Below, one piece after another: positions 10,870 through 15,539 of a stretch of 64,000 nucleotides of DNA. The stretch comes from a virus. Both the position numbers and the translations under genes were made by a program. The stretch covers positions 5,121 to 69,120 of IMG/VR virus record IMGVR_UViG_2866807700_000004, one strand, 5' to 3'. Below the pieces are notes generated by a model. The model saw only the letters and a program-made list of their open reading frames with translations, was not told the origin of the DNA and did no database searches. Each line of letters opens with the position of its first letter. Position 1 is the first letter of the stretch.

Positions 10870-11501
10870 GGTTCCAGATCGAGCCGCTGACCGTATGGAC
10901 CGACCCGGTGACGAGCCCGCGCCGCTCGTCCGGGGTCTTCCGCGCATCGTGGAAGTCCACCCTCGATCTCCTGCAGCGGGAGGCCGGGCTTCTCGGCGCC
11001 GACCTCGTCGTGCTCCAGGTTGACGCCGGGAAGGCGGACATCCGGCAGGACGGGATGCTTCGCGCACGCGCGCACGTCGAGTTCCCCGGTGTCGTCGTCA
11101 GTTTCAGCAGCGACCACGGGCCGCTGCGGTACGCCGCGGATACCTACCAGCAGGAATGGGGCGGGGCCCTACCGGCGTGGCAGGCCAACGTCCGGGCGAT
11201 CGCTCTCACGCTGGAGGCGCTGCGGGCGGTCGACCGGTACGGCGTCACCAGGCGCGCGGAGCAGTACGTCGGGTTCCGGGCGCTGCCCGCCGCCGAGGGC
11301 GGGTTCGCCTCCTCCGATGACGCCGTCCGCTGGATGCGCGACCAGGCGAGCCCGCACGCCAAGGACGCCGACACCGCCACCCCGAACGGCCTGTACCGGT
11401 TCCTGGCCAAGCAGCTGCACCCCGACACCGGCGGGACCGCGGACGACTGGGAGCGGCTCGACCAGGCCCGCCGCCTGCTGAAGGAGGCGAAGCTCCTGTG
11501 A
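10866..11501 (+). CDS. phage protein with C-terminal partial J-domain (HPD motif)
   Basis: 'LYRFLAKQLHPDTGGTADDWERLDQARRLL'. Confidence 0.8.
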   Translation: MRFQIEPLTVWTDPVTSPRRSSGVFRASWKSTLDLLQREAGLLGADLVVLQVDAGKADIRQDGMLRARAHVEFPGVVVSFSSDHGPLRYAADTYQQEWGGALPAWQANVRAIALTLEALRAVDRYGVTRRAEQYVGFRALPAAEGGFASSDDAVRWMRDQASPHAKDADTATPNGLYRFLAKQLHPDTGGTADDWERLDQARRLLKEAKLL

Positions 11502-11746
11502 CCTCCGTCCTGACCGTCCGCGTAGGCGGCTCCGTCGCAGGCTCATGCGGCCGCGCCTGCTACGACGCTGAGCACGAGCCCTGCCGGTGCGTGTGCTGTG
11601 GCACGAACCACCGCGCCGGGTTCGAGCAGGCGGTTCGCAACGCGCGGGACATGGCCGCGGAATGGGTCGCGCGGGCCCGTGCGGACGGTCAGGACATCGA
11701 CACCTACGAGCTGGGCCTGGACGTGGTCCAGCACGCCCTTTTCTGA
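11498..11746 (+). CDS. small Cys-rich protein
   Basis: C-x3-C...CRCVCCG.NH. Confidence 0.65.
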   Translation: MTSVLTVRVGGSVAGSCGRACYDAEHEPCRCVCCGTNHRAGFEQAVRNARDMAAEWVARARADGQDIDTYELGLDVVQHALF

Positions 11747-12276: not shown

Positions 12277-12663
12277 GTGACTGACCAGTTGAGCAAGCCG
12301 TGCGTGCACTACTCCGCAGCTGAAGAGCGCACGTGCGGGGCGACACCGACCCGGCTGTTCATCCAGGGGCCCCGCTGCGTCCTGCACATCCCTTCGGCCG
12401 AGCGCGGCCTGCCCGAACCGCCGCCGGGCACGTGCGCGCTGGCGAGGTGCCACTGCGGGAAGCCGTCATGCCCCGCCTATGAGACGTACGGCCGCGAGTC
12501 CTACTCGGCGCAGAGCCTGGCGTGGCCAGCGGTCGACGCCCGCGCGGTCGCCTCCGGGAAACGCCGCGCCTCCCCGCAGGAGAAGGCCGCGGCGAAGGCG
12601 GCCGTCCAGGAACAGAAGGACCGCGACGCGGCGCACCGCCGCGGTGCTCAGGGAGGTGCGTGA
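12277..12663 (+). CDS. Cys/His-rich hypothetical protein
   Basis: CVHY..C...RCVLH..CHCGKPSC; stop overlaps the next ATG. Confidence 0.6.
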   Translation: MTDQLSKPCVHYSAAEERTCGATPTRLFIQGPRCVLHIPSAERGLPEPPPGTCALARCHCGKPSCPAYETYGRESYSAQSLAWPAVDARAVASGKRRASPQEKAAAKAAVQEQKDRDAAHRRGAQGGA

Positions 12664-13535
12664 TGGTTCAGCTCACCTACTACGAGCCGACCGGACAGGC
12701 CGCGGATTCCCTGCCGCCCGAGCCCAGGTGGGTGCCAGCCCCAGACGATGCGCACACCTTGCGGCACGGCTACAACCTCGCTGACATCGAACGGCTCGCG
12801 CGGATCGCGGTGAGAGCGGCGAGGGCGCAGGCGATGGACTACCAGGACCGGTACGAAGCCGCCTGGTACGCGATCGTCGAAGGGATCTACACGGCCATTG
12901 ACGCCCCGGACCCGTGGGAGCTGAAGCGGCTCGGCGCGGACGCCGTGAACCGGCTCCAGCAGGACTACGGGCACACATGGGGTTACGACCGCCGAAACCC
13001 CGACGCCGGGTTCGAAGGCATGCGGGGATTCCGCAAGTACTGGGAACTCGACCGTCGCGCCCACCGCTCCTGCGAGGACGGGGTAGTGGATCGGGTAGCA
13101 CTGTGGCAGATCTGGGAACGGCTGTCCGCCACACATCAGGCGATGCTGCTCGCGCTGGCCGCCTACGAGGACCCCGTCGCAGCGTCGGCCGCGGTCGGGA
13201 AGCGCTACAACACCTTCAACACCCATCTGAAGAACGCCCGCCGCGAGTTCCTCACACTGTGGCACGAGGGCGAGACACCGTCGCGGTTCTGGGGCAAGGG
13301 CGACCGGCGCCGGGGCCGCCGTAGCGGTGTTCAGCTGCTGGTCAACCGGCGGCAGCAGCGCGAACGGCGCGCGTTGGCCGAGGTCGAACCGAAGCCAGCC
13401 AAGCCGCCTCGAACCCACTGCTCCAACGGGCACCGACTCGTCCCGGACATCCTCACGGCTGCCGGCAGGTGCAAGGCGTGCGGTCGTGACCGCAGCGCCC
13501 TTTACCGCGCGAAGAAGCGGGGGGCGGCTGCGTGA
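12663..13535 (+). CDS. sigma-70 region 4-like regulator with C-terminal Cys/His zinc motif
   Basis: 'LWQIWERLSATHQAMLL...YNTFNTHLKNARREF' is sigma region-4-like; 'RTHCSNGH...RCKAC' tail. Confidence 0.55.
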   Translation: MVQLTYYEPTGQAADSLPPEPRWVPAPDDAHTLRHGYNLADIERLARIAVRAARAQAMDYQDRYEAAWYAIVEGIYTAIDAPDPWELKRLGADAVNRLQQDYGHTWGYDRRNPDAGFEGMRGFRKYWELDRRAHRSCEDGVVDRVALWQIWERLSATHQAMLLALAAYEDPVAASAAVGKRYNTFNTHLKNARREFLTLWHEGETPSRFWGKGDRRRGRRSGVQLLVNRRQQRERRALAEVEPKPAKPPRTHCSNGHRLVPDILTAAGRCKACGRDRSALYRAKKRGAAA

Positions 13536-15156
13536 TCGGGATCGCAGGGTTCACCGGCGTCACATGGCGGGATGCGGCCGTGCAGGCGCGGCATGGCGAG
13601 GCCGCGCTGTGGAAGGCCGCGCAGGCGGTGACCAGCCAGCTGGCTGGTCGGATCGGCGAGCGTGCCGCGGTGGCGTGGGTCCACACTGCCGCCGTCGTCG
13701 ACCACGCTGGCCGCTATGGGCTCATCTCGGCCGAGAACCTCGACGATTCTGCTGCGATCCGGAAACAGGCTGAGCAGCTCGCCTCGTGCAACCCGGCGCT
13801 CGCCGGCTTCGCTGACCCTGCTGCGAACCCGATGTGGGACGCCGACCCTGGCGACGCGGCGGCCGACATCGCGGCCCTGTACGCCGAGCACACGACCGTG
13901 GACCTGCCGGGCGTCCCGGACGGGTACCGCATCGGTGACCTCTACCAGCAGCTCAGCGAAGAGGCGCGTAAGGGACGCGCGCTGTGCCAGACCCCGCCAT
14001 GGGTCACCGACCTGCTCCTGTCCCTGTCCCTCGACCATGCCGCCGACGAAGCCGGATGGGATGGACTGCGCTCGCTGAAGGTCATCGACCCGGCGTGCGG
14101 GACCGGGCACGTCCTAGTCGAGACTTTCCTGCGGCTGGAAGCGTGGCAGTGGCTGCACCCAGGGGCACCCCGCGTGCGCGGTGCCCTAGTGCCGGACGTG
14201 CTGGCGCAGGTCCACGGATGCGACCTGGACCCGTACGCGGCGCTGATCGCCCGGTACCGGCTGTGCGCCTTGGCCGCCGCGATGAGCGGCACCGACCTTG
14301 CCGGGCTACCCGCGGATCTGCCGGTGCAGGTGGCCACCGCAGATTCCCTGCTCGCCGACGATGAGCCATTGCTGGCGCGCGGTGCCTACGACGTGGTGGT
14401 GATGAACCCGCCCTACATCACCCCGAAGGACGCCCTGGCCCGGGACGCGGTCCGCGCCCGGTACCCGGACGTGTGCCACCGAAAGTACGCACTCTCACTG
14501 CCGTTCCACGCGCTGGCCAATGACCTGCTCAAGCCGGGAGGCTGGTGCGCGCAGCTCACCGCGAACAGCTTCATGAAACGAGAGTTCGGCAAGCCGTACG
14601 TCGAGAAGTACCTGTCAGGGCTGGACCTGCATTGGGTGATCGACACCTCCGGCGCCTACTCCCTGGCCACGGCACCCCCACCGTCATCCTCGTCAACCGC
14701 AACCAGCCCCCAACCGCGCCCATGGTGTCGACCGTGCGAGGCGCCCAAGGCGAACCCTCGGTTTCGGAACTCCCGGGCCGCGGCATTGTGTGGACACAGC
14801 TCCGCCACGCCGTCCGCGAACGCGACCAAGCCGCCCGCCTCGACGCGCTCCTGGACCGCAGCGACAGCCAGGAGCTGCACGCCGCGTCCGAGGAACCACC
14901 CCCGGTGCCGGTACCTGATGGAGACCGGCCGTCAGCGCAGGGCGCGCCCACTCCGAAGCGGAGACGTGCGGCACCGTCCGCAGTTGGCCAGCTCGATCTG
15001 CTCATCGAGGTGGCGGAAGAGGGAGCGGGCACGCAGCAGGCCCGGGTGGCGCAACGGCGACGGAGCCGCCTTAAAGGCGGCATCTCTGCGGGTTCGAATC
15101 CCGCCCCGGGCACCTGGCGGCAGGCCAAGCAGGCGAGCGACCGGGGGCCGAAATGA
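13532..15156 (+). CDS. PglX (BREX type 2)-like N6-adenine DNA methyltransferase, frameshifted at ~14660
   Basis: Motif I IDPACGTGH, motif IV NPPY, and PglX-type blocks GDLYQQLSEEARK, TANSFMKREFG, VIDTSGAY|PGHGTPTVIL split between two frames; the corrected frame stops at 15156, overlapping the next ATG. Confidence 0.85.
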
Positions 15157-15539
15157 CCCGCACTGAGGACCTGAGTGCGGCGTTCGCCGACGGGCCCGCC
15201 CTCCACGCGGGCTTGGACGAGAAGCTCACCGCCGCGCTCCGGGCGGCTGTGCCGCTGCGGATGCTGGAGATCCGCGGCTGGACGGATCGGCAGCGCGCGA
15301 ACGACGCCGCGTGGGTCCAGGAGCTGATGCGCGGCGGCGCGGCTGCGGACGAGCTGCTGTACGGCGTGAAGGGCGGCCGGCCCGCTGCAGCGTTTGGTGC
15401 CTTGGTTCGCGGCCTGGCGGTCCTGGCGTACGTGGAGGGCGGCGTGGAGCTCGCCGGGCTGCACTGGTGCGCCGAGCCGCATATCGAGTGCCCGAGCAGG
15501 CCCCCGTGGACGCATTTGGAGGAGGCCGTGCCGGGGTGA
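15153..15539 (+). CDS. hypothetical protein
   Basis: ATGA overlap; GC3 bias. Confidence 0.6.
   Translation: MTRTEDLSAAFADGPALHAGLDEKLTAALRAAVPLRMLEIRGWTDRQRANDAAWVQELMRGGAAADELLYGVKGGRPAAAFGALVRGLAVLAYVEGGVELAGLHWCAEPHIECPSRPPWTHLEEAVPG

What the first reader, a model, noticed from the sequence alone, without database searches (positions are those of the whole stretch)
13532..15156. Prophage-encoded compact PglX-like methyltransferase: possible BREX/Pgl mimic
Seen: PglX-type blocks (GDLYQQLSEEARK, QTP, DPACGTGH, NPPYITPKD, KYALS.PF, TANSFMKREFG, DTSGAY[I]PGHGTPTVIL); the corrected product is 541 aa and ends soon after the catalytic domain; no pglW/Y/Z or brx genes are in the window. Established: PglX is the ~1200-aa self/non-self methylase of the Streptomyces Pgl (BREX-2) system. 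Inference: a captured core that pre-methylates phage DNA, with relaxed specificity since the target-recognition region appears absent, or that poisons the host complex.
Basis: partly seen in the sequence, partly recalled or inferred. Interest (0 to 1): 0.75.

Follow-up and report, generated by a model that had tools for sequence, protein, structure and literature searches.

The report
Broken clamp-tailed PglX-like prophage methylase
A prophage in a high-GC actinomycete carries a frameshifted copy of a small DNA adenine methylase from a little-known family of mobile elements that is the closest relative of the Pgl/BREX-2 defence methylase PglX, lacks its DNA-reading half and usually ends in a peptide resembling the one that grips the replication sliding clamp.

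Summary
However, the "541-aa product" exists only after repairing a 1-base deletion at 14659/14660. Its last ~40 codons also run through a tRNA-Leu(UAA) gene at 15040-15114.

The gene belongs to a large family of compact methyltransferases (430-490 aa). I found it only in actinomycete prophages, conjugative elements and giant Streptomyces plasmids.

- **Closest relatives:** BREX-2 PglX (NF033451, profile positions 112-512 of 1185).
- **Phylogeny:** the family is one separate clade, not a recent capture of a host PglX core.
- **Catalysis:** motifs I and IV are invariant, so family members are probably real enzymes rather than decoys.
- **Fold:** HsdM-like, with a helical bundle, catalytic domain and one helix. 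There is no target-recognition domain.
- **New observation:** 72 of 120 members, and none of 120 PglX, end in a Pro/Ala-rich linker plus Q(L/P)xLF(D/A)L..AA. This fits the beta-clamp-binding consensus. The window has QLDLL.

My reading is that the family methylates element DNA during replication as an anti-restriction function, and that this copy is inactivated. A specific anti-Pgl role is untested.

The host carries a full BREX-2 set on other contigs, with an in-frame stop in pglW. The scan has noted this family, and clamp-tethered phage methylases, before on other DNA.

The parts
13532..14659 (+). N-terminal 376 codons of the methyltransferase gene. GTG start overlaps the stop of the upstream ORF. 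Encodes the helical bundle and most of the gamma-class catalytic domain.
   Evidence: Translation. 73% identity to intact P0003 over residues 4-376. Pfam Eco57I, N6_Mtase and MmeI_Mtase. NF033451 at 236.6 bits. GC3 frame plot.
14087..14110 (+). Motif I, the SAM-binding block DPACGTGH.
   Evidence: D, P, C, G, G and H are invariant in 81 family members.
14405..14416 (+). Motif IV, the catalytic NPPY.
   Evidence: NPPY is invariant in the family.
14657..14662 (+). Frameshift site. One base is missing between 14659 and 14660: TAC-[A]TC-CCT. It is not in a homopolymer run.
   Evidence: DNA alignment with L010 and L009. Frames compared.
14662..15156 (+). Continuation of the gene in the shifted frame. 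It holds the invariant PGHGTPT block, the last strands and the C-terminal helix (homology to about 14853), then a Pro-rich linker. The frame then reads on through the tRNA to TGA at 15154-15156.
   Evidence: 58% identity to P0003 residues 374-438. NF033451 profile positions 455-512. When read through the break, 44 of 44 remaining invariant family residues are kept.
14989..15003 (+). QLDLL, a beta-clamp-binding-like peptide in the shifted frame. It sits at the position of the family's C-terminal Q(L/P)xLF motif.
   Evidence: Canonical CBM definition, Q-aliphatic-x-[L/M]-[F/L], from PMC11139829.
15040..15114 (+). tRNA-Leu(UAA) gene with a short variable arm. It lies inside the 3' end of the 'corrected' ORF.
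   Evidence: ARAGORN. Rfam RF00005 at 45 bits against a gathering score of 29.
15153..15539 (+). 128-aa ORF of unknown function. Its homologues sit next to the two closest intact methyltransferase genes.
   Evidence: BLASTP of neighbouring genes at 38-40% identity, E about 1e-13. No Pfam, PHROG or PADLOC hit.
12660..13535 (+). Upstream ORF (291 aa) with an HNH-like C-terminus. It overlaps the methyltransferase start by 4 nt. This pairing is not conserved next to relatives.
   Evidence: phrog_826 at E 1.1e-5. Neighbour comparison.

Best explanation
The locus is a recently inactivated copy, with a 1-base deletion, of a gene for a compact N6-adenine DNA methyltransferase.

The enzyme belongs to an uncharacterised family found on actinomycete mobile elements. 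The family is the sister group of the BREX-2/Pgl methyltransferase PglX. Its architecture is:
- part of the PglX N-terminal helical bundle
- the gamma-class catalytic domain
- one C-terminal helix
- no target-recognition half
- in about 60% of members, a disordered Pro/Ala-rich linker ending in Q(L/P)xLF(D/A)L..AA-COOH

This tail peptide fits the beta-sliding-clamp (DnaN) binding motif.

**Inferred mechanism for intact members.** The enzyme is held at the replisome by the clamp. It methylates adenines in newly made element DNA with little or short sequence specificity. This gives the phage or plasmid broad cover against restriction-type defences that read unmethylated DNA.

**This prophage's copy.** The deletion removes the invariant IPGHGTPT block, two core strands, the terminal helix and the tail from the reading frame. 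This copy most likely makes no active enzyme.

**Shown:** family membership, relation to PglX, absence of a TRD, invariant catalytic motifs, mobile-element contexts, the frameshift, and the conserved tail peptide.

**Inferred:** DNA as the substrate, clamp binding, relaxed specificity, and the anti-restriction role.
For: **Frameshift**
- Searches show it.
- The assembly carries adjacent intact ORFs of 5.3-5.9 thousand aa, so indel errors are rare.

**Family**
- 472 proteins at E <= 0.001. The best 120 are mostly 430-490 aa and 47-73% identical.
- NF033451 BREX_2_MTaseX is by far the best model. It covers only profile positions 112-512 of 1185, and this holds for intact members too. PADLOC PglX is likewise the best match.
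- Tree: 44 compact against 41 PglX sequences, split by one branch with 100% support.
- 45 invariant columns include DPxCGxGH and NPPY.

**Structure**
- AF2 model of P0003: pLDDT 87.7. Helical bundle at 9-117, Rossmann domain at 130-400, helix at 416-438, disordered tail.
- Fold matches are CamA, HsdM subunits, PacII M, PglX/BrxX and BsaXI.

**Tail motif**
- 72 of 120 compact proteins against 0 of 120 PglX.
- In 60 of those 72 it sits 5-8 residues from the C-terminus.
- 49 of 120 compact proteins end in AA, against 1 of 120 PglX.
- The flanking linker is not conserved.
- Background: 0.26% of host ORFs match the stricter 5-residue pattern, which 59 of 120 family members also match.
- CBM consensus from PMC9690074 and PMC11139829.

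**Mobile-element contexts**
- This prophage.
- Next to a phage portal gene.
- Next to a Replic_Relax gene.
- Next to Mom-like, DpdA and SRA genes.
- On 31 giant Streptomyces plasmids.
Against: - Clamp binding rests on a short motif alone.
- About 40% of members lack the tail, including the two closest relatives (P0003, P0004) and the plasmid-borne Streptomyces subclade.
- Half of the motifs have Pro at position 2, where known ligands prefer an aliphatic residue.
- Substrate and specificity are unknown. The HsdM-like fold could mean that a separate specificity partner is needed.
- The frameshift could still be an assembly error. When read through, the gene shows no further decay.
- The family is not found in 50,697 phage records or in BFVD. 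'Phage' function is therefore inferred from prophages only.
Confidence: 0.6

Rival explanations
1. This is the first reader's idea: an active anti-Pgl/BREX-2 device. The compact enzyme would either write the PglX mark on phage DNA, or use its PglX-like N-terminal bundle to enter and poison the host PglW/X/Y/Z complex.
For: - The closest relatives are BREX-2 PglX.
- The host genome encodes pglY, pglZ, brxD and a helicase on C111, and pglW-pglX on C400.
- BREX-2 PglX is common in this order: 40 of 150 other sampled genomes.
- The PglX N-terminal bundle has been proposed as an interface for other BREX proteins (PMC12839542).
- The family sits among other anti-restriction DNA-modification genes.
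Against: - The copy is frameshifted.
- With no TRD, there is no reason to expect PglX's motif.
- The first ~110 positions of the PglX profile are also missing.
- Catalytic motifs are invariant, which a pure decoy would not need.
- In the classical Pgl model, modified phage is the restricted form (PMC4365076).
- It is an old separate clade, only 36% identical to the host PglX.
- No co-occurrence test was possible, because compact forms were too rare in the 400 sampled genomes.
Confidence: 0.12
2. The gene is intact and active in the real organism. On this view the 1-base deletion is an assembly or consensus error.
For: - Read through the break, the gene keeps 44 of 44 remaining invariant and 67 of 74 near-invariant family residues, with no stop in the correct frame.
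- The genome is a 421-contig draft with 6% contamination.
Against: - The site is not a homopolymer.
- Adjacent ORFs of 5.3-5.9 thousand aa are uninterrupted, so indel errors are rare.
The host pglW carries an in-frame TAG. Together these suggest real mutations.
Confidence: 0.18
3. It is the M subunit of a multi-subunit enzyme, like HsdM, PacII M or BsaXI. It would need a separate specificity protein, either element-encoded or borrowed from the host, to recognise a defined site.
For: The best full-length fold matches are type I M subunits and PacII M, with TM 0.5-0.6 over about 440 columns. The conserved C-terminal helix sits where HsdM contacts HsdS.
Against: - No Methylase_S or DUF7008 gene was found within 10 kb in nine contexts.
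- No neighbour is conserved across the family.
- The only shared neighbour, a 128-aa ORF, is limited to the three closest relatives.
Confidence: 0.07
4. It does not act on DNA. It would be an NPPY-type methyltransferase for protein glutamine or for RNA.
For: Weak hits to PrmC (TIGR03534, E about 1e-5 to 6e-9).
Against: DNA adenine methyltransferases match far more strongly by both sequence and fold. A clamp-type tail and DNA-modification neighbours also point to DNA.
Confidence: 0.03

Closest known systems
BREX-2 / Pgl methyltransferase PglX (NCBIfam NF033451; S. coelicolor PglX, PMC4365076)
   Same: It is the best-matching family by a wide margin. They share part of the N-terminal helical bundle, the gamma-class catalytic domain and the post-catalytic blocks (profile positions 112-512). 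Identity is 35-47%.
   Different: The compact protein is about 470 aa against about 1200 aa. It has no TRD or DUF7008 half and lacks the first ~110 profile positions. It is not linked to pglW, pglY or pglZ and is carried by mobile elements. It forms a separate clade with 100% support. It has a disordered tail with a clamp-type peptide that none of 120 PglX proteins has.
Type I HsdM subunits and PacII M (PDB 2okc, 5ybb, 7vs4)
   Same: Same overall architecture: an N-terminal helical domain, a catalytic domain, a C-terminal helix and no built-in TRD.
   Different: No HsdS-like partner gene is nearby. Sequence identity is only 14-17%.
CamA, orphan adenine methyltransferase of Clostridioides difficile (PDB 7lni, 7rfk)
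   Same: Best Foldseek match for the catalytic domain. It is an orphan enzyme, outside any restriction system.
   Different: CamA has its own C-terminal DNA-recognition domain and a defined 6-bp site.
M.EcoGII, the prophage-encoded non-specific adenine methyltransferase (PMC5778455)
   Same: It is a prophage-borne adenine methyltransferase without site specificity. That is the functional model proposed here. It is also silent in its lysogen.
   Different: It belongs to the beta class and is unrelated in sequence. No clamp motif is known. Non-specificity is demonstrated for M.EcoGII but only inferred here.
Eukaryotic DNMT1-PCNA coupling (cited in PMC9690074)
   Same: A DNA methyltransferase recruited to newly replicated DNA through a short clamp-binding peptide.
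   Different: It is a eukaryotic cytosine-5 enzyme with a PIP box. The bacterial counterpart proposed here is untested. A comprehensive beta-clamp review does not contain the word 'methyltransferase' (PMC11139829).

Membership tests
BREX-2 PglX (NF033451) | Full-length match above the curated cut-off of 400 bits | tested here: not met
   236.6 bits for the N part plus 39 bits for the C part. Intact relatives score 290-333 bits. Only profile positions 112-512 of 1185 are covered.
BREX-2 PglX (NF033451) | C-terminal target-recognition half (PF22654, DUF7008) | tested here: not met
   PF22654 is present in almost all of the 120 listed long PglX proteins and in none of the compact proteins. The model ends in one helix plus a disordered tail.
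BREX-2 PglX (NF033451) | Gamma-class motifs I (DPxCGxG) and IV (NPPY) | tested here: met
   DPACGTGH at 14087-14110 and NPPY at 14405-14416.
BREX-2 PglX (NF033451) | Gene linkage with pglW, pglY and pglZ | tested here: not met
   The gene lies in a prophage early region. The host pgl genes are on contigs C400 and C111.
BREX-2 PglX (NF033451) | Groups inside the PglX clade | tested here: not met
   Compact and long forms are separated by one branch with SH-aLRT 100. The tree is unrooted, so this shows they are distinct groups, not which came first.
Compact PglX-related methyltransferases of actinomycete mobile elements (unnamed; annotated as 'Eco57I domain-containing protein') | Full-length similarity and family-invariant residues | tested here: met
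   67-73% identity to P0003 and P0004. Forms a clade with them at 100% support. 44 of 44 remaining invariant residues are kept when read through the break.
Compact PglX-related methyltransferases of actinomycete mobile elements (unnamed; annotated as 'Eco57I domain-containing protein') | Intact reading frame of 430-490 codons | tested here: not met
   A 1-base deletion at 14659/14660. There is no stop before the tRNA in the correct frame.
Beta-clamp (DnaN) ligands | Clamp-binding motif Q-aliphatic-x-[L/M]-[F/L] in a disordered terminal region | tested here: inconclusive
   QLDLL at 14989-15003, but out of frame in this copy. The family logo is Q(P/L)(S/T/D)L(F/L)(D/A)L. Motif definition from PMC11139829.
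Beta-clamp (DnaN) ligands | Physical binding to the clamp pocket | not testable with these tools
Host DnaN was identified at C123, next to dnaA.
Type I HsdM | Works with an adjacent HsdS specificity subunit | tested here: not met
   No Methylase_S-type gene in nine contexts.
Prophage | Phage hallmark genes flanked by bacterial genes | tested here: met
   RecT, PNK, ligase, terminase and portal. Repressor and lysin, with bacterial DeoR, amidohydrolase and GNAT genes at the left end of the contig.

The most novel reading that the evidence does not exclude
Actinomycete phages and plasmids carry a PglX-derived methyltransferase family that replaced the target-recognition half with a beta-clamp tether. 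The enzyme rides the host replisome and lays down low-specificity m6A on nascent element DNA. It would be a bacterial counterpart of DNMT1-PCNA, used as a broad counter-defence that includes BREX-2/Pgl. The tail's conserved ..AA-COOH end might additionally act as a degradation signal that limits damage to the host.
Probability: 0.3. Interest if true: 0.8.

Novelty: new variant of a known kind. Interest (0 to 1): 0.5.

Why it matters
How Pgl/BREX-2 tells self from phage is still unsettled, and no counter-measure from actinomycete mobile elements is known. A mobile-element family that is PglX's nearest relative offers three things:
- It is a natural experiment on what the PglX catalytic core does on its own, since the family keeps the catalytic core and lacks the recognition half.
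- It gives a concrete candidate to test on Pgl+ Streptomyces.
- If the tail binds DnaN, it would be the first replication-coupled DNA methyltransferase I could find described for bacteria.

For this particular window the practical message is more modest. The gene is broken, and its 'corrected' length is an artefact of reading through a tRNA gene.

Tried and rejected
- **Near-identical DNA or sister copies:** no megablast hit in phage records. No close DNA relative in 60 related genomes. No exact match of the frameshift region, with or without the extra base, in genome contigs.
- **tblastn of the N part against 50,697 phage records:** one weak hit only, a Synechococcus phage at 29% identity. 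BFVD fold search gave no compact viral look-alike.
- **Co-occurrence of compact forms with PglX across 400 genomes of the class:** abandoned. Almost all matches were long PglX. The few candidate compact hits were fragments, or lay inside long open frames.
- **Host proteins with a similar C-terminal peptide:** I looked for known clamp ligands among them. The two I checked were a radical-SAM protein and a DUF6248 protein, which was uninformative.
- **Restriction-modification pair with the upstream HNH-like ORF:** rejected, because the pairing is not conserved next to relatives.
- **Split PglX with the recognition half in a neighbouring gene:** rejected, because no DUF7008 neighbour was found in nine contexts.
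- **Programmed frameshifting:** rejected, because there is no slippery or repeat sequence at the site.
- **Literature searches** for PglX-like phage genes, or for clamp-binding bacterial methyltransferases, found no description.
Full report
**What is in the sequence**

The window is 71% G+C and is G000:C55:11264-75263 of a 9.38-Mb, 421-contig actinomycete draft. The ORF from GTG 13532 reads well in frame 1 up to DTSGAY at 14659, and then turns into low-complexity text. The next family block, PGHGTPTVIL, is in the frame of the 14545 ORF.

A DNA alignment with two intact relatives shows TAC-ATC-CCC in both, against TAC-TCC-CT here. One A is missing, and the site is not a homopolymer. The 541-aa product requires this repair.

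In the repaired frame the ORF does not stop until 15154-15156. On the way it crosses a tRNA-Leu(UAA) gene at 15040-15114 (ARAGORN; Rfam 45 bits). Intact relatives are 430-490 aa.

**Is the break real?**

The same assembly holds adjacent uninterrupted ORFs of 5,307, 5,509, 3,511 and 5,886 codons on C273, so indel errors are rare. Read through the break, the gene keeps 44 of 44 remaining invariant and 67 of 74 near-invariant family residues. The break is therefore either recent or an artefact. I put about 0.8 on it being real.

As written, the product lacks the invariant I-P-G-H-G-T-P-T block, two core strands and the terminal helix.

**Setting**

The contig starts with bacterial genes (DeoR regulator, amidohydrolase, GNAT), followed by an HTH repressor. 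After that come RecT, a polynucleotide kinase/phosphatase, a DNA ligase, terminase, portal and a 1570-aa tape-measure-sized ORF. A CHAP lysin lies beyond the window. This is an integrated prophage.

The methyltransferase sits in the early region. Its start overlaps an ORF with an HNH-like end. Downstream are the tRNA and a 128-aa ORF whose homologues also neighbour the two closest intact methyltransferase genes.

**The family**

A search limited to 299-952 aa found 472 proteins at E <= 0.001. The best 120 are mostly 430-490 aa and 47-73% identical. Where named, they come from Streptomyces, Kitasatospora, Actinomadura, Actinoallomurus, Streptosporangium, Nonomuraea, Nocardia, Actinoplanes and similar genera. 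They are annotated only as 'Eco57I domain-containing' or 'N-6 DNA methylase'.

The nearest long proteins are all BREX-2 PglX of about 1200 aa, at 35-47% identity over 65-96% of the query. Almost all of them carry PF22654 (DUF7008), and the compact proteins lack it.

NCBIfam NF033451 (BREX-2 PglX) scores 236.6 bits (E 4.5e-70) for the N part and 39 bits for the C part. BREX-1, -5 and -6 PglX and type II models score E 1e-8 to 1e-11. Only profile positions 112-512 of 1185 are matched. The same holds for intact members, which score 290-333 bits against a cut-off of 400. PADLOC agrees.

A maximum-likelihood tree of 44 compact and 41 PglX N-terminal halves, including the host's own PglX, splits the two groups by a single branch with SH-aLRT 100. 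The window groups with P0003 and P0004. The tree is unrooted. It shows one distinct family, not the direction of descent.

The host PglX is only 36% identical to the prophage gene. 'Captured core' in the sense of a recent capture is therefore not supported.

**Enzyme or decoy?**

In 81 aligned members, 45 columns are invariant. They include D-P-x-C-G-x-G-H (motif I) and N-P-P-Y (motif IV). This points to selection for catalysis.

The AlphaFold2 model of P0003 (pLDDT 87.7, pTM 0.88) has four parts:
- a helical bundle at residues 9-117
- a Rossmann-type domain at 130-400
- one helix at 416-438
- a disordered tail

Foldseek finds CamA for the catalytic domain only. Over the whole length it finds type I M subunits (2okc, 5ybb), PacII M (7vs4), BsaXI and PglX/BrxX. 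By sequence, the PDB relatives are Salmonella PglX, E. coli BrxX, CamA and MmeI. The architecture is HsdM-like and has no TRD.

**A conserved tail peptide**

I found that most members end in a Pro/Ala-rich linker of variable length and sequence, followed by a fixed peptide. Anchored on the glutamine, the logo is Q-(P/L)-(S/T/D)-L-(F/L)-(D/A)-L-L-x-x-A-A-COOH. The counts are:
- 72 of 120 compact proteins carry Qxx[LIM][FLWP] in their last 30 residues, against 0 of 120 PglX.
- In 60 of the 72, the motif sits 5-8 residues from the end.
- 49 of 120 compact proteins end in AA, against 1 of 120 PglX.

A stricter 5-residue pattern matches 59 of 120 family members. Among 8,164 likely-coding host ORFs, that same stricter pattern occurs in the last 30 residues of 0.26%.

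The peptide fits the bacterial beta-clamp-binding motif. The consensus is QL(S/D)LF (PMC9690074). The canonical form is Q-aliphatic-x-[L/M]-[F/L], and QLDLF is the strongest binder (PMC11139829).

The window has QLDLL at 14989-15003, just before the tRNA. The host's replicative DnaN lies next to dnaA on C123.

Several caveats apply. Half of the motifs have Pro at position 2. The short Streptomyces subclade of 431-439 aa has no tail. The two closest relatives of the window also lack a clear motif. That beta-clamp review does not contain the word 'methyltransferase', and my searches found no bacterial example.

**Where the family lives**

All nine contexts I examined look like mobile elements:
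- this prophage
- a Streptosporangium prophage with a portal gene
- an Actinoplanes element with Replic_Relax and AbiGi
- a phage-like metagenome contig with WhiB and DUF5131
- an Actinomadura array of small ORFs with GmrSD/HNH and a lysin-like gene
- a short metagenome contig made up only of small ORFs of no known family
- long one-directional gene arrays in Streptomyces and Nocardia that also hold Mom-like, DpdA, SRA-McrA and other methylase genes

Thirty-one giant Streptomyces plasmids carry a homologue.

The family was not found in 50,697 phage records or in BFVD. In species-representative genomes it is rare. It appeared in none of 150 others in the order, where 40 have long PglX. In 400 genomes of the class there were only a few fragmentary candidates.

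No specificity-subunit gene and no DUF7008 gene sits nearby in any context.

**Host Pgl system**

The window has no pgl genes, but the genome does. On C111 it encodes PglY (956 bits), BREX-2 PglZ (805 bits), BrxD (669 bits) and a helicase. On C400 it encodes PglW followed by PglX (922 bits; the N-terminal 697 aa, then the contig ends).

pglW carries an in-frame TAG between profile positions 574 and 586. The lysogen may therefore be Pgl-negative.

- Progeny phage are thought to be modified and then restricted, and PglX is toxic without PglZ (PMC4365076). Under that model, writing a PglX-like mark on phage DNA need not be protective.
- The PglX N-terminal bundle has been proposed as an interface for other BREX proteins (PMC12839542). 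A dominant-negative role therefore cannot be excluded.

**Verdict**

The gene is a broken member of an uncharacterised, mobile-element-borne sister family of BREX-2 PglX.

The best-supported working model for intact members is replication-coupled, TRD-independent adenine methylation of element DNA as an anti-restriction function. A specific anti-Pgl role is possible but unsupported.

Earlier notes of this scan recorded the same compact family in another genome (e1-3415214). They also recorded clamp-tailed methyltransferases in T4-like phages (e1-213282, e1-299563). These are leads, not evidence.

Noticed in passing
window 15040-15114 (+); also G000 C6:4897-4970 and C372:48181-48254: The prophage carries a tRNA with a UAA anticodon (Leu, the rare TTA codon of high-GC actinomycetes) and a short variable arm. 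My prophage gene calls contain only 1 TTA in 17,089 codons, and that one lies inside the tRNA itself. The phage therefore does not need this tRNA for its own genes. Two more short tRNA(UAA) genes exist elsewhere in the genome, and no long-arm tRNA-Leu(UAA) was called.
   Followed up: partly
G000 C400:1-6560 (locus L006), minus strand: Host pglW (BREX-2 kinase) is interrupted by an in-frame TAG in the kinase region. pglX follows and runs off the contig end. The lysogen may be Pgl-negative.
   Followed up: partly
G000 C111:188856-198917 (locus L044): The host carries a BREX-2 cluster of pglY, pglZ, brxD and a DEXH helicase, all apparently intact.
   Followed up: partly
window 11498-11746 (+): An 82-aa prophage ORF ends in ...VVQHALF-COOH. 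This is a clamp-binding-type peptide at the extreme C-terminus. The ORF may be a small clamp ligand or inhibitor.
   Followed up: no
window 15153-15539 (+): A 128-aa ORF of no known family has homologues next to the methyltransferase genes of the two closest relatives (L009:11815-12315, L010:786-1190). It may be a functional partner, or this may only reflect synteny.
   Followed up: partly
plasmid hits H2-H26 (for example NC_023284.1:53390-54616, NZ_CP108628.1:212711-213937): On many giant Streptomyces plasmids the compact methyltransferase gene lies about 40-70 kb from one end of the record. In the chromosomal or plasmid loci I read, it sits among long one-directional arrays with Mom-like, DpdA and SRA-McrA genes. 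This looks like a DNA-modification or anti-restriction island.
   Followed up: no
G410:C106:392-1111 and C173:1162-1392; G499:C65:20308-21412: In the 400-genome sample, the few likely compact-family hits outside long ORFs were also interrupted or split (a TGA inside, or two pieces). This hints that copies often decay in their hosts.
   Followed up: no
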